In this document: positions 8,402 through 36,880 of the stretch, piece after piece
Layout of the letters: the number at the start of each line of letters is the position of its first letter
Position numbering within the stretch: the first letter of the stretch is position 1
Source: Candidatus Glassbacteria bacterium
GTDB lineage: Bacteria; Gemmatimonadota; Glassbacteria; GWA2-58-10
Assembly: GCA_019456185.1 (NCBI GenBank)
Contig: VRUH01000006.1
Coordinates: 26,113 to 90,112 of the forward strand
Direction of reading: 5' to 3'
DNA length: 64,000 nucleotides
Translations under genes and position numbers: made by a program
Notes under the pieces: model-generated
Database searches by the model: none
Told to the model about the DNA's origin: nothing
The model's input: the letters and a program-made list of their open reading frames with translations, nothing else

Positions 8402-9967
8402 ATGGCGATATTTTATCGAATTGCGTCCGGTGTCAGAAATTTCCTCGGCGGCAGGCAACAGCAGTTGGCCGGCATGTTGATCGGCGCGTCGGTTGTACTG
8501 CTTGCCTTCGCCGGGCTGCGCTACACTTCCAGCGACAGTTTCTGCGTTTCCTGCCACGTCCATCCCGGCGCCGACTCCACCTGGACACTTTCGACCCATT
8601 ATAAAAACGAAAGCGGAGTCATCGTCCACTGCTACGAGTGCCACCTTCCCCCCCCGGGCCTGTACCACCTGAGCGAAAAAGCAAGGATGGGGCTGCGCGA
8701 CGCGTTCAGCACGGTTTTCCGGGACACGGACAAGATCGACTGGGAGGAGCGCTCGGCGTTGTACAACGCTCACACTTACACCTATGACAGCTCCTGCCTC
8801 AGCTGCCATGCCGATCTCTACAGCGTCGGCCTGACCGACAAGGGCGTGGAAGCCCACAAGCATTACGAAAGCCAGCCGGACAAGCTTTACTGTATCAACT
8901 GCCATAAAACCGTGGGCCATTTCCACGAGGCAGCATTGATTGCCGAATCGGATTCGGCCCCGGGACAGAGACCGGCCCGGCGAGTGGAGACAGGCTCCGA
9001 GCTGGCTGGCTACAGCGAGACAATCCCCGGCACGGACGTGACTTTCGAGATGGTGGCGATCCCGGGCGGCCCGTTCATGATGGGCAGCCCGGATGATGAA
9101 CCGCTGCGCGACCAGGACGAGGGCCCCGTGCAGGAAGTGGCTCTCAGTCCGTTCTGGATCGGCGAGACCGAGGTAACATGGAACGAGTTCCGCGCCTATT
9201 TCGACGAGACCTCGCAGCCGGCGCGCAAAGACACGCTCTCCGACCACGTGGCCGACACCAGCTACGTGGACACCCGCACAGGTCCCACGCCCAAATACGG
9301 CTCCCCGGATATCGGCGGCTGGGAGTCGGCCTACTCGATGACCCATCACGCGGCCACCGAATACTGCAAGTGGCTTTCGGAGAAAACCGGCAGGGAATAC
9401 AGGCTGCCCACCGAGGCTGAATGGGAGTACTGCGCCAGGGCGGGCACGCAAACCCCGTATTTCTTCGCGGGCGACCCGGCTAAAATGAGCGCCAGGCCCC
9501 TGCTCAATCGGATCTTCGGTACGGAGGACGGAGAGCTGGCGCGGTTCGTGTTTTTCCGGCGCAACAGCGGCGGCCAGGTGACAAACCCCTACACCAACGA
9601 ACCCAACCCGTGGGGCCTGTACAACATGCTGGGCAACGTCAAGGAGTTCTGCCGCGATTTCTACGCAGCCGACGCCTACTTCCGCGCTTACGAGGGTGCG
9701 CCGGGACTGTCCTCCGGCCCGTTAGTCGACCCCGCCGGACCGCCGACCGGCAGCGAGCACGTGGTGCGCGGCGGCTCCTACCTCAGCGACCCGGCCGATT
9801 TCCGCTCGGCCAGCAGGGGACGTACCGCTCACGACGCCTGGCTGTTAACCGACCCGCACAAACCGAAAAGCAAGTGGTGGTATTCCGACTGCATGGAAGT
9901 GGGCTTCCGCGTGGTCAGGGAGCCGGATGAGAGCGAGGCCGTGATCTCCGCCGGCGGAACGGAGTAA
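8402..9967 (+). CDS. NapC/NirT-type tetraheme cytochrome c fused to an FGE-sulfatase (SUMF1-fold) domain
   Basis: N-terminal TM helix; CVSCH, CYECH, CLSCH and CINCH heme motifs; C-terminal GGPFMMGS, RLPTEAEWEY, NPWGLYNMLGNV and RGGS motifs. Confidence 0.85.
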   Translation: MAIFYRIASGVRNFLGGRQQQLAGMLIGASVVLLAFAGLRYTSSDSFCVSCHVHPGADSTWTLSTHYKNESGVIVHCYECHLPPPGLYHLSEKARMGLRDAFSTVFRDTDKIDWEERSALYNAHTYTYDSSCLSCHADLYSVGLTDKGVEAHKHYESQPDKLYCINCHKTVGHFHEAALIAESDSAPGQRPARRVETGSELAGYSETIPGTDVTFEMVAIPGGPFMMGSPDDEPLRDQDEGPVQEVALSPFWIGETEVTWNEFRAYFDETSQPARKDTLSDHVADTSYVDTRTGPTPKYGSPDIGGWESAYSMTHHAATEYCKWLSEKTGREYRLPTEAEWEYCARAGTQTPYFFAGDPAKMSARPLLNRIFGTEDGELARFVFFRRNSGGQVTNPYTNEPNPWGLYNMLGNVKEFCRDFYAADAYFRAYEGAPGLSSGPLVDPAGPPTGSEHVVRGGSYLSDPADFRSASRGRTAHDAWLLTDPHKPKSKWWYSDCMEVGFRVVREPDESEAVISAGGTE

Positions 9968-10067
9968 TACTTTAACACTTTCGCAATCTCACTTTGTTTG
10001 CTATATTATTAGTAGACACTGATTTGAAATCTCGCAGGCCCTTTTCCATATATTCCGGAGGCGTGCC

Positions 10068-11015
10068 ATGTCCGAGAAACTGAACCGCAGGAATTTCCTT
10101 TCCAAAGCCGCATTGGGCGCTACCGGGGCAGGCATGTTCCTCAGCTGCGAGGAGCGGAACCTGGCCGAAAAGCAGGGCGACATGCCCAAAGAACCGCCGA
10201 TCAAGGGCCTGCAGACCGGTAAGATCGGCAACGTGACCTTGAGCCGGCTGATGTGCGGCGGCAACCTGGTCAGTGGTTTCGCCCACGCCCGCGACCTGAT
10301 CTACGCCTCGAACCTGATCAAGGCCTACCACACCGACGAGAAAGTGCTCGAGACTGTCCAGCTCTGCGAGGAGAACGGGATCAATACGGTGATTTTCCGT
10401 TGTGACGATCAGATTGTGGGGCTGATGAACAAGTACTGGAAAGAGCGCGGCGGCAAGATCCAGTGGCTGGCCCAGACCTATCCAAAGCTCGGCGACCTGA
10501 CCAGCAACATCCAGATTGCGATCGACAACGGAGCCATCGGCGCGTTCGTGATGGGCGGGATAGCCGATAAGCTGGTGGCCGACGGCAAGGTGGACGTGCT
10601 GGGCGAGATCAACGGCTTCATCAAGCAGAACGGGCTGATCTCGGGGTTCGCCGGACATGCGCTCGAGGTGCCGATGGAGGTCGAGAAGGCCGGGATCGAC
10701 AACGATTTCTACATGAAGACCTTGCACCATCACGGCTACTGGTCGGCCATTCCCGAGGAGAAACACGACAACCTGTGGTCCAACACTCCCGAGGAAACAG
10801 CCGAGTTCATGAAAAGTGTCGAGAAGCCGTGGATTGCCTACAAGGTGCTGGCCGCCGGGTCGATCCATCCACGCGAGGGCTTCCGCTACGCGTTCGAGCA
10901 CGGGGCCGATTTCCTCTGCGTCGGCATGTTCGACTTCCAGGTCCGCGAGGACGTGATCGTGACCAAGAGTATCCTCTCCAAGGATATCACCCGGGACAGG
11001 CCCTGGCGGGCATAG
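10068..11015 (+). CDS. Tat-exported aldo/keto-reductase-like oxidoreductase
   Basis: NRRNFLSK twin-arginine signal; IG...SRL.CGGN and KPWIAYKVLAAG motifs of the AKR-like TIM barrel. Confidence 0.7.
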   Translation: MSEKLNRRNFLSKAALGATGAGMFLSCEERNLAEKQGDMPKEPPIKGLQTGKIGNVTLSRLMCGGNLVSGFAHARDLIYASNLIKAYHTDEKVLETVQLCEENGINTVIFRCDDQIVGLMNKYWKERGGKIQWLAQTYPKLGDLTSNIQIAIDNGAIGAFVMGGIADKLVADGKVDVLGEINGFIKQNGLISGFAGHALEVPMEVEKAGIDNDFYMKTLHHHGYWSAIPEEKHDNLWSNTPEETAEFMKSVEKPWIAYKVLAAGSIHPREGFRYAFEHGADFLCVGMFDFQVREDVIVTKSILSKDITRDRPWRA

Positions 11016-34613: not shown

Positions 34614-35501
34614 TCAGCAGACCTCGGCTATCGCGGCCAGGCACTGCTTGAGTGGTTGGACCGGTGCGGATGGCTCGCTTTCGTATTCCAGCGAAAAAGG
34701 CCCGTCGAAACCGATTTCCACCAGCCTGTTCATCATCCCGGGCAGGTCGAGCATCCCCTGGCCCACAACCCGGTCCGACCAGCCGTACTCATTGCTGTCG
34801 TCGGGCACCATGTCTTTGAGATGGACCATTCGCACGCGCTCGCCGAACTCCTCGACAACCGCCACCGGATTGACACCCGAGCGGCCGTAATGCCCGCTGT
34901 CGACACAGAGGCCGACCATGGGCGACAGGTCTTTTATCCGCTCGCGGAACATCTCCGGGGTGGCGTATAGTTCGTCTTCCGGGCCGTGGTTGTGGATTCC
35001 CACCGGGATGCCGTACTCGCCGGCCAACCTGTCGACCAGCGGCAGGGCGTCGTAGACCGGGTAGACGCTGATGGCGATAACCCCCAGCGTTCTGCCGAAC
35101 TCGAATGCCTTTCTGGCCTGCGCCTCGTCGTTGGCCACCCGCTCCACCCCGAACGCATCGATTGTAATTCCGGCATCATCCAGTTTCGCCATCGTCTCCC
35201 GGACCACTCCCGCGTCCGAGTCAAGGGGCAGATGGACGCTCGGGGCCAGTTCGATGTGGCCGAGGTCCAGTTCTTTCATCCCGGCTATCATCCGGTCCAG
35301 GTCCCACTCCCGGAAACACCAGCTCTGCACACCCATCCTGAACCCGCAGTAAGCCTGCGATGCAGAATGTCCGGCCGGCACGGCGCTGCTCCCGGCGGGA
35401 GCCTTAGCGCCGCCGCAGGCCGCCAGCGCCGCGGCTCCCAGTATCCCGCCACCCAGACCGATAAAACCTCGCCTGGAAATTATTCGTCCGGACTCATTCA
35501 T
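34614..35501 (-). CDS. Tat-exported sugar phosphate isomerase/epimerase (xylose-isomerase-like TIM barrel)
   Basis: SRRGFIG Tat signal; IHNHG, CVDSGH, VHLKD and SLEYE motifs. Confidence 0.9.
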   Translation of the reverse strand: MNESGRIISRRGFIGLGGGILGAAALAACGGAKAPAGSSAVPAGHSASQAYCGFRMGVQSWCFREWDLDRMIAGMKELDLGHIELAPSVHLPLDSDAGVVRETMAKLDDAGITIDAFGVERVANDEAQARKAFEFGRTLGVIAISVYPVYDALPLVDRLAGEYGIPVGIHNHGPEDELYATPEMFRERIKDLSPMVGLCVDSGHYGRSGVNPVAVVEEFGERVRMVHLKDMVPDDSNEYGWSDRVVGQGMLDLPGMMNRLVEIGFDGPFSLEYESEPSAPVQPLKQCLAAIAEVC

Positions 35502-35566
35502 TGCGGCTCCCACGTAATAAGATGGTTAACATTTTTTCCTGATCAGTACTTACCACGCCTGTTGAA

Positions 35567-36880
35567 TTACCTCAGTTCCCTGACATACACGTTGCAGAAC
35601 TGCAGATGGTCGCCGTGGTGCTGCAGGGCGACCGGTCCGCGCGCAGGCATTCCGGGCAGTTCCGCGGCCCGGATAACGTGCTTTCCGTTAAGCTCCACGT
35701 TCAGCACGCTGCCCGCCACCGTTATCTCGAACCTGTTCCACTCTCCGACAGGGTTATCCGCGTTCATAACCGGGGTCACCGCCCGTCTCACTTCCGGGGG
35801 CATGCTCAGGTCGGTGCGGTAACCGTATACCTCGCCGGAACCGACCGGCAGGTTCCAGATATTGACCTGGCTTTTGGAGCTGCCGCGCAGGTAAATTCCG
35901 CTGTCACCTGCATTCATCACCGAGGCGGTCAGCGAGTCCCCGTTCTCCTCGAGCGCCACGCTGCCGTCGGGCAGGATGATGAACCAGTCCTTGAGGGACG
36001 GCTCACCGGCCAGTCGCCAGTCGACGATCATCGCGAAATCTTCGAACTCCCCTTCACTCCACAGGTTTTTCTCCTCGCGCTCAGCCTCGCTCTGGCCGTC
36101 ATAGTTTATCACGTTATCCTCGACCGTCCAATGCCCCTCGTGGCCCGCCACCCATTTCCAGCCGCGGAAGTCCAGCCCGTTGTACAGGCTGCTATATCCC
36201 CGGTCTTCCTGCGCCACCACCTCGGGCGGGAGCGGCGAGGACGGCAGTTCGGCGATCCGGATATTCCTGAAATGCACCTCGCTGCCCTCGCTCTCCAGGC
36301 AGATATACCCTTTGCGCGGGTTGCAGTTGAAAGCCCTTGTAACCAGGTCGCCGTTGACATGCAATTCCACCATGCCGTCCTTGCTCACTACCCGGTAGCG
36401 GTTCCACTCTCCGGTGGGGTTCATCCGGTCCCGGCTGGGCAATGCGCGCATCCAGCCCCGGGGGTGACGGTTTTCCGGGATAAGCGAAGCGCCCTTGATC
36501 GCGAACACATCGCCGGCATTGCCGTCCATGATCTGCACCTCTATCGAACGCGAGAAGGGCGAACCGACCGCCGGCAGGTCATCGGAGTGGATGAACAGCC
36601 CGGCATTGCCGCCGGCTTTGGTGTGACGCCACTCGAGTTCGAGTACGTAGTTTTCGTACATCTTTTCCGTACGCAGGATACCCATGGGCAGGCCGGTGCA
36701 GACAATCATCCCGTCGCCGACGGTCCAGGTCTCCGGAGCGCAGTTGACATTTACCCAGCCCCGCAGGCTGCCGCCGTCGAAGAGCGGCGTGAACTTCTCC
36801 GGCGCGCTCCGTGATGAACCGCAGGTAAGCACAAGGTACGAACCGAAAGCGAGCAGCAGCAGAGCGGTTAAACGTTTCAT
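35567..36880 (-). CDS. Lipoprotein with tandem DUF1080 (3-keto-disaccharide hydrolase) domains
   Basis: LFDGGSLRGW / LYNGLDFRGW, GNAGLF / GDSGIYLR, GEWNRY / GEWNRF, LESEG / LQHHG and FRNI / FCNV motifs. Confidence 0.9.
   Translation of the reverse strand: MKRLTALLLLAFGSYLVLTCGSSRSAPEKFTPLFDGGSLRGWVNVNCAPETWTVGDGMIVCTGLPMGILRTEKMYENYVLELEWRHTKAGGNAGLFIHSDDLPAVGSPFSRSIEVQIMDGNAGDVFAIKGASLIPENRHPRGWMRALPSRDRMNPTGEWNRYRVVSKDGMVELHVNGDLVTRAFNCNPRKGYICLESEGSEVHFRNIRIAELPSSPLPPEVVAQEDRGYSSLYNGLDFRGWKWVAGHEGHWTVEDNVINYDGQSEAEREEKNLWSEGEFEDFAMIVDWRLAGEPSLKDWFIILPDGSVALEENGDSLTASVMNAGDSGIYLRGSSKSQVNIWNLPVGSGEVYGYRTDLSMPPEVRRAVTPVMNADNPVGEWNRFEITVAGSVLNVELNGKHVIRAAELPGMPARGPVALQHHGDHLQFCNVYVRELR

What the first reader, a model, noticed from the sequence alone, without database searches (positions are those of the whole stretch)
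8402..11015. Tetraheme NapC/NirT quinol-dehydrogenase domain fused to a Cys-less FGE-fold domain, paired with a Tat-exported AKR-like gene
Four CxxCH motifs and a membrane anchor are fused to a SUMF1 fold whose catalytic Cys pair (RGGSWxC...C in true FGE) is absent (RGGSYLSDPADFR), so it is unlikely to mature sulfatases. Inference: the FGE fold is a docking or sugar-binding module that wires periplasmic oxidoreductases (next gene; GH109-like gene at 12.8 kb) to the quinone pool.
Basis: partly seen in the sequence, partly recalled or inferred. Interest (0 to 1): 0.62.

Follow-up and report, generated by a model that had tools for sequence, protein, structure and literature searches.

The report
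Haem-flavin wire for exported TIM-barrel enzyme
A membrane four-haem cytochrome is fused to a catalytically dead sulfatase-maturase-like domain that probably carries a covalently attached flavin, and it is paired with an exported enzyme of an unnamed TIM-barrel family, which looks like an undescribed way of linking a periplasmic enzyme to the respiratory quinone pool.

Summary
ORF 8402-9967 encodes one membrane helix, four CxxCH haem sites (NapC/NirT family) and an FGE-fold domain without the FGE cysteine pair. ORF 10068-11015 is a twin-arginine-signal TIM barrel with no Pfam or NCBIfam family ("TIM315"). The fusion is not a chimera: more than 5,000 proteins share the architecture.

The FGE-like subfamily is normally followed by a Tat-exported Gfo/Idh/MocA dehydrogenase. 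It occurs with a NapC tetrahaem, a PSCyt1 cytochrome or no cytochrome. A conserved loop carries an ApbE-type flavin-attachment motif (here D290-TRTGP-T296, canonical DGISGAT or DAITGAT in orthologues). ApbE genes adjoin 13 related loci.

In the Glassbacteria clade of this window, TIM315 replaces the dehydrogenase. Elsewhere in the same genome, TIM315 is fused to a DoxX membrane domain and then carries its own motif (EAITSAT), as do DoxX-linked Gfo/Idh/MocA enzymes.

My best reading is TIM315, then tethered FMN, then four haems, then the quinone pool, or the reverse direction (confidence 0.58). Nothing here is biochemically shown, and TIM315's cofactor and substrate are unknown. The "AKR-like" label is only a remote resemblance, and the proposed link to the GH109-like gene has no support. 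I found no published description.

The parts
8402..9967 (+). Gene for the 521-aa NapC/NirT tetrahaem cytochrome fused to an FGE-like domain
   Evidence: ORF with a ribosome-binding site. PF03264 and PF03781 both match. More than 5,000 homologues share the architecture.
8465..8518 (+). N-terminal membrane-anchor helix (residues 22-39, LAGMLIGASVVLLAFAGL), preceded by Arg6, Arg12 and Arg18
   Evidence: Read from the sequence. It aligns with the NrfH membrane helix.
8543..8557 (+). Haem 1 site CVSCH (C48-H52), followed by the invariant H54-P55
8630..8644 (+). Haem 2 site CYECH (C77-H81)
8675..8701 (+). EKARMGLRD segment. K93 and D100 align with the NrfH quinol-pocket residues Lys82 and Asp89, and K93 corresponds to Lys91 of CymA.
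   Evidence: Alignment to 2j7a_C. Both residues are invariant in 34 diverse homologues. CymA K91 is essential for quinone interaction (PMC2762525, abstract).
8795..8809 (+). Haem 3 site CLSCH (C132-H136)
8891..8905 (+). Haem 4 site CINCH (C164-H168)
9038..9922 (+). FGE/PvdO-fold domain (about residues 213-507)
   Evidence: PF03781 matches residues 216-475. The AF2 model is confident here. The best structural match is PvdO 5hha, TM 0.75-0.78, followed by true FGEs.
9269..9289 (+). Candidate ApbE flavinylation motif D290-T-R-T-G-P-T296, with T296 the predicted FMN-bearing residue, in a low-confidence loop (residues 273-301)
   Evidence: G294, T296 and P297 are invariant. The motif sits at the same position in 114 of 120 homologues, and about 28 of them have canonical [ST]GAT. 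L011 has DGISGAT and L013 has DGITGAT. The loop has pLDDT below 50.
9767..9805 (+). RGGSYLSDPADFR: the former FGE active-site loop, with Ser461 and Phe466 in place of the two catalytic cysteines
9851..9889 (+). Subfamily-specific insertion DPHKPKSKWWYSD (D484-D496). It marks the FGE-like proteins that pair with Gfo/Idh/MocA or TIM315.
   Evidence: It is invariant in the fusion family. It is shared, as DPQxPKSxW[WY], with the PSCyt1-fused and stand-alone forms.
10068..11015 (+). Gene for TIM315, a 315-aa exported TIM-barrel protein of an unnamed family
   Evidence: No Pfam or NCBIfam match. More than 7,000 homologues. AF2 gives an 8-stranded beta/alpha barrel. It lies directly downstream of the fusion in every member of the window's clade that I could check.
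10083..10154 (+). Twin-arginine signal (NRRNFL plus a hydrophobic region), ending in FLSCEE. That segment combines a lipobox-like Cys27 with the family-wide conserved motif LSxEE[KR]xL.
   Evidence: Read from the sequence. R7, R8, F10, L25, S26, E28, E29 and L32 are invariant. Homologues are named 'twin-arginine translocation signal domain-containing protein' by NCBI.

Best explanation
The two genes form one electron-transfer unit. Gene 1 is a membrane-anchored NapC/NirT-type tetrahaem cytochrome that exchanges electrons with the quinone pool at a conserved Lys/Asp site near haem 1. Its periplasmic FGE/PvdO-fold domain has lost formylglycine chemistry. I infer that it carries an FMN covalently attached by ApbE to Thr296 on a flexible loop. 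Gene 2 (TIM315) is a Tat-exported, presumably cofactor-loaded, TIM-barrel enzyme. In this Glassbacteria clade it takes the place that a Tat-exported Gfo/Idh/MocA dehydrogenase holds in other phyla. The tethered flavin would convert the enzyme's two-electron chemistry into one-electron steps for the haems: substrate, TIM315, FMN, four haems, quinone. I favour the oxidative direction by analogy with the sugar dehydrogenase partners and the carbohydrate-degrading gene context, but the reverse direction (quinol to a periplasmic reductase) is not excluded. Shown here: the domain architecture, the conserved motifs and the conserved gene pairings. Inferred: flavinylation, physical docking, redox activity of TIM315, the direction of flow and the substrate.
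For: 1. Architecture and quinone-site residues.
2. The FGE-like subfamily is followed within 400 nt by a specific Gfo/Idh/MocA in 22 of 45 loci from five phyla. Counting frameshifted, contig-end and one-gene-apart cases, this holds for nearly all the NapC-fused members outside the window's clade that could be checked. 19 of those 22 partners have RRxF Tat motifs.
3. The same FGE-like domain is fused to NapC tetrahaem or to PSCyt1 mono- or di-haem cytochromes, or stands alone.
4. The motif D-x-x-[ST]-G-[PA]-[ST] sits in the same loop in 114 of 120 fusions, with canonical TGAT or SGAT in about 28. None of 120 TIM315 homologues, and none of 31 partner Gfo/Idh/MocA proteins, has it. The published motif is D-x-x-[S/T]-G-A-[S/T] (PMC12052999).
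5. ApbE genes lie directly beside the FGE-like gene or the pair in 13 loci, and the window's genome encodes ApbE (PF02424, E 5e-48).
6. Partner swap: TIM315 directly follows the fusion in the window, in L007, L088 and L089, and in genomes G011, G020, G022 and G026.
7. Complementary design in the same genome. A DoxX-TIM315 fusion carries EAITSAT about 35 residues before the barrel. The motif is present in 102 of 120 homologues from several phyla and in near-variants in at least five of the remaining 18. DoxX-adjacent Gfo/Idh/MocA proteins carry EA[IV]T[AS]AT in 12 of 12 loci. The strict motif occurs in only 9 of about 2,993 ORFs of the genome, and one of those is a bona fide FMN_bind protein with EAITGAT.
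Against: - No biochemical data exist for any member.
- The window's motif has Pro where ApbE substrates have Ala, and Thr-Arg at the x positions. Published mutagenesis shows that changes at the Gly and Ala positions lower flavinylation.
- No ApbE gene lies near this locus. The nearest is on another contig.
- TIM315 has no recognisable cofactor site. The AKR tetrad is absent.
- The 80 Planctomycete-type TIM315 loci have no NapC-FGE, DoxX or ApbE nearby.
- A promoter-like match lies in the 100-nt gap between the two genes, so co-transcription is not shown.
- The haem domain has low confidence in AF2, as expected for a model without haems.
Confidence: 0.58

Rival explanations
1. Hub model. The cytochrome-FGE protein serves Gfo/Idh/MocA dehydrogenases encoded elsewhere in the genome. 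TIM315 is not a redox enzyme but a metal-dependent sugar isomerase, lyase or hydratase. It would occupy the operon position that the xylose-isomerase-like TIM barrel (AP_endonuc_2) holds in other phyla, processing the oxidised sugar.
For: - Operons in other phyla read NapC-FGE, Gfo/Idh/MocA, AP_endonuc_2 (L009, L012, L014, L090).
- TIM315 gives 79-93% hhalign probability to AP_endonuc_2.
- TIM315 sits next to Gfo/Idh/MocA genes in G000 contig C40 and in L003.
- G000 has three partner-type Gfo/Idh/MocA genes without their own FGE-like neighbour.
- AP_endonuc_2 homologues occur in 17 of 80 Planctomycete-type TIM315 loci.
Against: - In the DoxX-TIM315 fusions the flavin motif is built into the TIM315 polypeptide just before the barrel, with no Gfo/Idh/MocA gene nearby.
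- The presence or absence of the motif in TIM315 follows the same rule as in Gfo/Idh/MocA: own motif with DoxX, none with an FGE-like partner.
- The full-length profile match to AKR is better than the partial one to AP_endonuc_2.
- PF01261 does not match.
Confidence: 0.2
2. The FGE-like domain carries no flavin. It is either a PvdO-like periplasmic oxidase acting on a small molecule, or a pure docking or carbohydrate-binding module, and electrons pass directly between the partner enzyme and the haems.
For: - PvdO is the closest solved structure and the top NCBIfam hit.
- The window's motif deviates from the canonical ApbE motif.
- 13 of 45 subfamily members did not match the motif pattern.
Against: - Orthologues carry fully canonical DGISGAT or DAITGAT at the same loop position.
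- ApbE is adjacent in 13 loci.
- An NAD(P)-type two-electron donor cannot hand single electrons to haems without a flavin-like mediator (established redox chemistry).
- The NF051459 PvdO score of 111.9 bits is far below its cut-off of 500.
Confidence: 0.12
3. The protein is a genuine, haem-assisted formylglycine-generating enzyme that matures sulfatases.
For: PF03781 matches, and databases name homologues 'sulfatase modifying factor 1' or 'formylglycine-generating enzyme'. Sulfatase genes lie within a few kb in L002 and L007.
Against: Both catalytic cysteines are missing in the whole family. The conserved neighbour is a dehydrogenase or TIM315, not a sulfatase.
Confidence: 0.02

Closest known systems
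NrfH / NapC / CymA (NapC/NirT family, PF03264), membrane tetrahaem quinol dehydrogenases
   Same: One N-terminal membrane helix, four CxxCH sites, and the conserved Lys and Asp of the quinol pocket (NrfH K82 and D89, CymA K91). All connect the quinone pool with periplasmic redox enzymes.
   Different: The window's protein carries a roughly 300-residue C-terminal FGE-fold domain with a flavinylation-type motif. Its partner is a Gfo/Idh/MocA dehydrogenase or TIM315, not a nitrate, nitrite, TMAO or fumarate reductase. Electrons probably flow into the quinone pool rather than out of it.
PvdO (PDB 5hha), the Cys-less periplasmic FGE-fold protein of pyoverdine maturation
   Same: It is the best sequence and structure match for the C-terminal domain (E 6.5e-21, TM 0.75-0.78). 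It is also periplasmic and also lacks the FGE cysteines.
   Different: The NCBIfam PvdO score is far below its cut-off. PvdO has no cytochrome and no DPxxPKSxWW insertion. The motif loop in the window's protein is an insertion region that PvdO aligns to only poorly.
ApbE-flavinylated extracytosolic electron-transfer proteins (NqrC/RnfG FMN_bind, DUF2271, DUF3570, PplA; eLife 2021, PMC8238504)
   Same: An extracytosolic Thr in a D-x-x-[ST]-G-A-[ST]-like motif, ApbE genes in the neighbourhood of homologues, and a role linking membrane electron carriers with periplasmic redox enzymes.
   Different: The carrier fold (FGE/PvdO), the NapC/NirT membrane module and DoxX are not named in the two flavinylation surveys searched. 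The usual motif variant here has Pro before the modified Thr.
Tat-exported Gfo/Idh/MocA enzymes with tightly bound NAD(P): Zymomonas glucose-fructose oxidoreductase and the Bacteroides BT2158 glycoside 3-dehydrogenase pathway
   Same: These are folded, cofactor-loaded periplasmic sugar oxidoreductases. The usual partners of the FGE-like subfamily belong to this superfamily, and the 3-keto-glycoside enzymes DUF1080 and AP_endonuc_2 occur in the same loci.
   Different: The published enzymes recycle their cofactor with a second sugar, and re-oxidation 'via cytochromes' is only suggested (bioRxiv 2024.03.25.586180). In the window the partner is a TIM barrel, not a Rossmann-fold enzyme.
Aldo-keto reductases (PF00248) and xylose-isomerase-like TIM barrels (PF01261)
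   Same: TIM315 is a (beta/alpha)8 barrel. hhalign gives 88-97% probability to AKR over 212-257 columns and 79-93% to AP_endonuc_2, while control barrel pairs give at most 2.6%.
   Different: Neither Pfam model matches. The AKR Asp-Tyr-Lys-His tetrad is not conserved. TIM315 has its own invariant residues: H73, R75, D76, K92, E101, E102, Q132, D153, D167, H197, D213, K217, K259, D281, D289 and Q291.
Cytochrome-linked glucoside 3-dehydrogenases (LacABC, ThuAB) and DoxD/DoxX quinone-linked membrane proteins
   Same: Both are functional analogues: periplasmic sugar or substrate oxidation coupled to the respiratory chain, and DoxX as a quinone-facing membrane partner.
   Different: The catalytic subunits are unrelated (FAD-dependent GMC enzymes and ThuA). 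No tethered FMN has been described for them.

Membership tests
NapC/NirT cytochrome family (PF03264) | Profile match above the curated cut-off | tested here: met
   89.9 bits against a cut-off of 24.1, residues 22-174.
NapC/NirT cytochrome family (PF03264) | Single N-terminal membrane helix followed by four CxxCH haem sites | tested here: met
   Helix at residues 22-39. CxxCH at 48, 77, 132 and 164, all invariant in 34 homologues.
NapC/NirT cytochrome family (PF03264) | Quinol-site Lys and Asp near haem 1 (NrfH K82 and D89, CymA K91) | tested here: met
   K93 and D100 align with NrfH K82 and D89 and are invariant.
NapC/NirT cytochrome family (PF03264) | Quinol or quinone oxidoreductase activity and haem content | not testable with these tools
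   Needs haem staining, spectra and a quinone assay.
Formylglycine-generating enzyme (FGE/SUMF1) | FGE fold (PF03781) | tested here: met
   135.9 bits. Foldseek matches FGEs with TM 0.60-0.68.
Formylglycine-generating enzyme (FGE/SUMF1) | Catalytic, copper-binding Cys pair (GGS[FW]xCxxxxC) | tested here: not met
   Ser461 and Phe466 occupy the two positions. No homologue in the alignment has the pair.
Formylglycine-generating enzyme (FGE/SUMF1) | Conserved association with sulfatase genes | tested here: not met
   The conserved neighbours are Gfo/Idh/MocA or TIM315. Sulfatases appear only sporadically.
PvdO (NF051459) | Equivalog score above the cut-off | tested here: not met
   111.9 bits against a cut-off of 500.
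ApbE flavinylation substrates | Motif D-x-x-[S/T]-G-A-[S/T] on an extracytosolic segment | tested here: inconclusive
   The window has D-T-R-T-G-P-T, with Pro in place of Ala. Orthologues have DGISGAT, DGITGAT and DAITGAT at the same position, and 114 of 120 carry the motif or the Pro variant. The motif definition comes from PMC12052999.
ApbE flavinylation substrates | ApbE encoded in the genome, or next to the substrate gene | tested here: met
   ApbE (PF02424, E 5e-48) is on contig C152 of the same genome. ApbE lies directly adjacent in 13 related loci. It is not adjacent in the window itself.
ApbE flavinylation substrates | Covalently bound FMN | not testable with these tools
   Needs in-gel fluorescence or mass spectrometry, plus a T296A variant.
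Aldo-keto reductase superfamily (for TIM315) | PF00248 match and the catalytic Asp-Tyr-Lys-His tetrad | tested here: not met
   No Pfam match. In the hhalign alignment the AKR Lys aligns with Gln136, the His with a variable Met/His/Gln position, and the DxxxxY segment with a gap.
Aldo-keto reductase superfamily (for TIM315) | Remote profile and fold similarity | tested here: inconclusive
   hhalign gives 88% (E 3e-6, 212 columns) with signals trimmed and 97% untrimmed. Foldseek rank 2 is the putative AKR 4exa, but all TIM-barrel hits have TM of about 0.5. Control barrel pairs give at most 2.6%.
Xylose-isomerase-like TIM barrel (PF01261, for TIM315) | Profile match | tested here: not met
   No Pfam match. 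hhalign gives 79-93% over only 143-173 columns.
Tat substrates (for TIM315) | [ST]-R-R-x-F-L-K motif plus a hydrophobic region at the N-terminus | tested here: met
   N-R-R-N-F-L-S-K followed by AALGATGAGMFLS. R7, R8 and F10 are invariant in 30 homologues. The Pfam and TIGR Tat models did not reach threshold.

The most novel reading that the evidence does not exclude
Periplasmic dehydrogenases that are exported folded, of two unrelated folds (Rossmann-type Gfo/Idh/MocA and the new TIM315 barrel), share a general and undescribed outlet for their electrons: an FMN on a swinging arm, attached by ApbE. The arm sits either in trans on a repurposed FGE/PvdO fold, which may itself be fused to NapC tetrahaem or PSCyt1 cytochromes, or in cis on the enzyme's own linker, and the enzyme is then coupled to a DoxX membrane protein. 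This would make the FGE fold a new class of flavinylated electron carrier, DoxX a flavin:quinone oxidoreductase partner, and TIM315 a new family of respiratory-chain-linked periplasmic enzymes. Thousands of proteins now labelled 'formylglycine-generating enzyme', 'DoxX family protein' or 'hypothetical' would need re-annotation.
Probability: 0.35. Interest if true: 0.85.

Novelty: new variant of a known kind. Interest (0 to 1): 0.72.

Why it matters
How periplasmic enzymes that carry a permanently bound nicotinamide cofactor get rid of their electrons is an open question in the recently described 3-keto-glycoside pathways of gut and environmental bacteria. The authors only speculate about cytochromes.

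This locus and its relatives offer a concrete, testable answer: a tethered flavin on an FGE-like fold, wired through four haems to the quinone pool. That would make sugar oxidation outside the cytoplasm energy-conserving.

The window adds two things:
- The same outlet has been re-used for a completely uncharacterised, very widespread TIM-barrel family with more than 7,000 homologues.
- A parallel DoxX-based design follows the same flavin logic.

If confirmed, the finding would extend the catalogue of ApbE substrates, correct the annotation of thousands of proteins named FGE or SUMF1, and give a handle on the function of DoxX proteins.

Tried and rejected
- **Assembly chimera.** Rejected: more than 5,000 full-length homologues from many assemblies and phyla.
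- **True sulfatase maturase.** Rejected: no Cys pair and no sulfatase synteny.
- **Family assignment of TIM315.** Pfam, NCBIfam, PDB sequence searches (single sequence and profile) and Foldseek gave nothing specific. A local 27-residue match to IMPDH/GMP reductase is not significant (E 0.05-0.3). hhalign to a DHODH (FMN TIM-barrel) alignment gave 0.1%.
- **A flavinylation motif inside stand-alone TIM315 or inside partner Gfo/Idh/MocA.** None found.
- **A common partner for Planctomycete-type TIM315.** In 80 metagenome loci, no neighbour family occurs in more than 10 loci. The recurrent ones include AP_endonuc_2-like barrels and a Flavin_Reduct-like protein in 7 loci.
- **Separate cytochrome genes next to stand-alone FGE-like genes.** None found consistently.
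- **Literature.** Searches combining NapC or tetrahaem, FGE or PvdO, Gfo/Idh/MocA, DoxX, ApbE and 3-keto-glycoside terms found no description of these architectures. The library is incomplete, so this is absence in what was searched.
- **False positive of the motif scan.** The amidohydrolase on contig C26 carries the family's ordinary 'TPxEAITAAT' segment and was set aside.


Full report
**1. Observation.**
The + strand holds a 521-codon ORF (8402-9967) with a GGAGAG ribosome-binding site. After a 100-nt gap comes a 315-codon ORF (10068-11015). The first protein has a single N-terminal hydrophobic helix (residues 22-39) and four CxxCH motifs at residues 48, 77, 132 and 164. Pfam gives NapC/NirT (PF03264, E 2e-25) over residues 22-174 and FGE-sulfatase (PF03781, E 3e-39) over residues 216-475. 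The segment RGGSYLSDPADFR (456-468) is the counterpart of the FGE active-site loop GGSFLCHxSYC, and Ser461 and Phe466 replace the two cysteines. The second protein begins MSEKLNRRNFLSK and matches no Pfam or NCBIfam model. Upstream lies a divergent RND efflux operon and downstream a convergent M20 peptidase gene, so the two genes stand alone as a pair.

**2. The fusion is real and widespread.**
A search of 5.8 billion proteins returned more than 5,000 significant hits. All 120 listed hits carry PF03781 plus PF03264. They come from Gemmatimonadota/Glassbacteria, Latescibacterota, KSB1, Bacteroidota, Acidobacteriota and others, and are annotated only as 'SUMF1/EgtB/PvdO family nonheme iron enzyme' or 'formylglycine-generating enzyme'. 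In an alignment of 34 diverse members, all eight haem cysteines, four further histidines (H54, H66, H152, H173), K93 and D100 are invariant, and none has the FGE cysteine pair. Alignment with the Desulfovibrio NrfH structure (2j7a) puts K93 and D100 on NrfH Lys82 and Asp89, the residues lining its quinol pocket (the role of these residues is from my own knowledge of the NrfH structure). The equivalent Lys91 of CymA is essential for quinone interaction (PMC2762525, abstract). The N-terminal half thus has what defines a quinone-pool-coupled NapC/NirT cytochrome.

**3. What the FGE-like domain associates with.**
- The window's FGE-like domain belongs to a distinct subfamily marked by a C-terminal insertion, DPxxPKSxW[WY].
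- In 22 of 45 loci the gene is followed within 400 nt, on the same strand, by one particular orthogroup of Gfo/Idh/MocA oxidoreductases. 19 of these 22 have an RRxF Tat motif.
- Most exceptions among the NapC-fused members are a 0.5-kb gap, an intervening cupin gene, frameshifts or contig ends.
- DUF1080/3-keto-disaccharide hydrolase and xylose-isomerase-like TIM-barrel genes, the other enzymes of the 3-keto-glycoside pathway (PMC8121099; bioRxiv 2024.03.25.586180), are frequent in the same loci.
- The part in front of the FGE-like domain varies. It is a NapC/NirT tetrahaem anchor, one or two PSCyt1 class-I haem domains (Verrucomicrobiota, Planctomycetota, Acidobacteriota), or only a signal peptide (Bacteroidota, Planctomycetota).

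Fusion of one non-redox-looking fold to two unrelated cytochrome types argues that it takes part in electron transfer. None of the partner dehydrogenases reaches any named NCBIfam equivalog.

**4. The flavin lead, and how I tested it.**
After I had reached point 3, earlier notes of this scan on other genomes suggested that this FGE-like domain carries an ApbE flavinylation site. I treated that as a hypothesis and tested it.
- *Motif.* The pattern D-[AGST]-x-[ST]-[GASR]-[AP]-[ST] occurs at one and the same loop position in 32 of 45 subfamily members, and in none of 31 partner dehydrogenases and none of 10 TIM315 proteins. Among the 120 listed fusion homologues, 114 have the motif. Most read TGPT, and about 28 have canonical TGAT or SGAT, such as DAITGAT, DAVTGAT, DGITGAT and DAISGAT. 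Pro and Ala therefore interchange before the candidate Thr. The published motif is D-x-x-[S/T]-G-A-[S/T] (PMC12052999).
- *The window.* It reads D290-T-R-T-G-P-T296. G294, T296 and P297 are invariant, and the loop (273-301) has pLDDT below 50 in an otherwise confident domain model.
- *ApbE.* ApbE homologues lie directly next to the FGE-like gene or the pair in 13 loci. The window's genome has an ApbE gene on another contig (PF02424, E 5e-48).
- *Literature.* The two large flavinylation surveys do not contain the words FGE, sulfatase, MocA, NapC or DoxX.

Flavinylation is thus well supported by comparative evidence, but it is not shown, and the Pro variant is untested.

**5. What is special about this window: the partner is swapped.**
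Fusion proteins at least 64% identical to the window's are not followed by Gfo/Idh/MocA. They are followed by the 315-aa protein: in the window, in L007 (76% identity), in L088 (a contig named Glassbacteria), in L089, and in four related genomes, G011, G020, G022 and G026. Matching contig lengths suggest at least seven more cases. A 51%-identical fusion (L090) has Gfo/Idh/MocA plus AP_endonuc_2 instead. The swapped clade also differs in the FGE-like domain right after the motif. It has TGPTPKYGSPDIG---GWE against TGPTPPYGSPDQGWGKGxRP, a three-residue deletion, which is where a partner interface would be expected.

**6. What TIM315 is.**
It has more than 7,000 significant homologues that are very well conserved, about 60% identical between Glassbacteria and Planctomycetota. 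About 90 columns of the alignment are invariant, many of them charged or polar. AlphaFold gives an eight-stranded beta/alpha barrel (pLDDT 76). Foldseek finds only generic TIM barrels with TM of about 0.5, the second hit being a putative aldo-keto reductase. PDB sequence and profile searches find nothing significant.

| Comparison | hhalign probability |
|---|---|
| TIM315 vs AKR, signals trimmed | 88% (E 3e-6, 212 columns) |
| TIM315 vs AKR, untrimmed | 97% |
| TIM315 vs AP_endonuc_2 | 79-93% |
| TIM315 vs DHODH | 0.1% |
| Controls: AKR vs AP_endonuc_2, AKR vs DHODH, AP_endonuc_2 vs DHODH | 2.6% or less |

The AKR catalytic tetrad is not conserved in that alignment. TIM315 is therefore an unnamed TIM-barrel family, perhaps distantly related to AKRs. 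Within the window's phylum it occurs only in the window's own family, in 13 of 151 genomes, with 4-13 paralogues each.

**7. Independent evidence that TIM315 is a flavin-linked redox enzyme.**
One paralogue in the same genome (contig C179, 527 aa) has this layout: a DoxX membrane domain (PF07681, above its cut-off), an internal RRELIKSL Tat-like motif, a further hydrophobic helix, the segment WEEKHLLAA that is shared with stand-alone TIM315, the sequence EAITSAT, and about 35 residues later the barrel.
- This architecture is widespread: thousands of significant hits, the 120 listed being 57-82% identical over nearly the full length, from KSB1, Latescibacterota, Bacteroidota, Planctomycetota and Acidobacteriota, all labelled only 'DoxX family'.
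- 102 of the 120 have [DE]-x-x-[ST]-[SGA]-A-T at that spot, including canonical DAISGAT and DAVTGAT. At least five of the remaining 18 have near-variants. 115 of 120 keep the internal RR motif.
- The same genome has a DoxX gene followed by two Tat-type Gfo/Idh/MocA genes that carry EAITAAT and EAITSAT near their C-termini. DoxX adjacency with the motif holds in 12 of 12 loci across the family's 13 genomes.
- Genome-wide, the strict motif occurs in only 9 of about 2,993 ORFs. They include these three proteins, a bona fide FMN_bind (RnfG/NqrC-type) protein with EAITGAT, a secreted 225-aa protein overlapping a Gfo/Idh/MocA gene, and another FGE-like protein with DAISGAT in the former cysteine loop.

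The result is a two-by-two pattern. The enzyme is Gfo/Idh/MocA or TIM315. The flavin site lies either on an FGE-like partner, or on the enzyme itself together with DoxX. TIM315 behaves exactly like the dehydrogenase in this scheme, which is my main reason to treat it as the redox partner of the window's cytochrome.

**8. Mechanism proposed.**
TIM315 is folded and loaded with an unknown cofactor in the cytoplasm and exported by Tat. In Glassbacteria it is possibly lipid-anchored through Cys27 of FLSCEE. It docks on the FGE-like domain. The FMN tethered to T296 accepts two electrons and passes them one at a time to haems 4 to 1, and the quinone is reduced at the K93/D100 site. I favour the oxidative direction because the equivalent partners are sugar dehydrogenases. 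I also favour it because neighbours in related loci are glycan-degrading genes: heparinase II/III-like, GH5, GH16, GH42 and glucuronoyl esterase. The reverse direction, a quinol-driven periplasmic reductase as is usual for NapC/NirT proteins, remains possible.

**9. Rivals.**
- *Hub model.* The cytochrome serves Gfo/Idh/MocA enzymes encoded elsewhere, and TIM315 is a non-redox sugar-converting barrel in the operon slot of AP_endonuc_2. The operon order in other phyla and the partial profile similarity support this. The built-in flavin site of the DoxX-TIM315 fusions argues against it.
- *No flavin.* The domain would be a PvdO-like oxidase or a pure docking module.
- *Genuine FGE.* This is excluded by the missing cysteines.

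By established knowledge it uses NAD+ in a redox-neutral way, so it needs no outlet.

**10. Limits.**
- Everything rests on sequence comparison.
- Loci were found by pattern scans capped at 600 stretches, so the counts are samples, not censuses.
- My family profiles were built ad hoc.
- ORF calling was mechanical.
- No multimer model could be made.
- Earlier notes of this scan on other genomes had already proposed the cytochrome-flavin relay for the Gfo/Idh/MocA partner. What this window adds is the TIM315 partner swap, the DoxX-based cis design, and the motif statistics that tie them together.

Noticed in passing
G000 contig C179:62068-63651 (L203:569-2152), outside the window: A DoxX-TIM315 fusion keeps a twin-arginine motif (RRELIKSL) in the middle of the polypeptide, before a fifth hydrophobic helix. 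It is a candidate polytopic protein needing both Sec and Tat for insertion. The motif is conserved in 115 of 120 homologues.
   Followed up: partly
G000 contig C39:7737-11837 (L201), outside the window: An operon of DoxX plus two long Tat-type Gfo/Idh/MocA proteins (549 and 612 aa), each with an EAIT[AS]AT flavinylation-like motif near the C-terminus. DoxX adjacency is conserved in 12 of 12 loci across the family's 13 genomes.
   Followed up: yes
G000 contig C154:19916-22126, outside the window: A different FGE-like protein (PF03781, E 3e-37) has a canonical DAISGAT motif exactly in the loop after RGGSW, where true FGEs have their cysteine pair. This may be a second, independent way of turning the FGE fold into a flavin carrier.
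   Followed up: partly
G000 contig C87:33508-34185, outside the window: A 225-aa secreted protein without any Pfam family carries EAITAAT, and its gene overlaps by 4 nt the start of a Gfo/Idh/MocA gene. It is possibly another flavinylated partner type.
   Followed up: no
L021, L025, L026, L032, L035: The same FGE-like subfamily is fused to one or two PSCyt1 ('Planctomycete cytochrome C') haem domains instead of NapC/NirT, again next to Tat-type Gfo/Idh/MocA genes.
   Followed up: partly
L003/L004 8001-13398 (Planctomycete-type metagenome contig): Three tandem TIM315 paralogues are followed by a BT2158-like Gfo/Idh/MocA gene and an ApbE gene, with no FGE-like or DoxX gene in the 17 kb read. The flavinylated protein of this cluster is unidentified.
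   Followed up: no
L089 9202-11434: A Tat-signal aldo-keto reductase with a C-terminal ferredoxin-like Cys cluster (PF00248 plus Fer4_9) lies next to a multihaem cytochrome (Paired_CXXCH_1). It is another exported TIM barrel apparently wired to haems.
   Followed up: no
window 10137-10154: In the Glassbacteria clade the TIM315 signal peptide ends in FLSC-EE, a lipobox-like cysteine, whereas Planctomycete homologues have LS[LF]EEK without Cys. The LSxEE[KR]xL segment is invariant although it lies at the signal-peptide boundary, which suggests the N-terminus is retained or functional.
   Followed up: no
window 34614-36880 (- strand): A 437-aa DUF1080/3-keto-disaccharide-hydrolase-like protein (421 bits with my profile) lies next to a 299-aa protein with a Tat motif (RRGFI). 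These are further periplasmic sugar-oxidation-pathway genes in the window.
   Followed up: no
G008 contig C220:27761-33503, outside the window: Five TIM315 paralogues in tandem in a related genome. Genomes of this family hold 4-13 copies each, and the other families of the phylum sampled hold none.
   Followed up: no
window 9980-10009: A sigma-70-like promoter match (TTCGCA, 16-18 nt spacer, TATATT or TATTAT) lies in the 100-nt gap between the cytochrome gene and TIM315, so the second gene may also have its own promoter.
   Followed up: no
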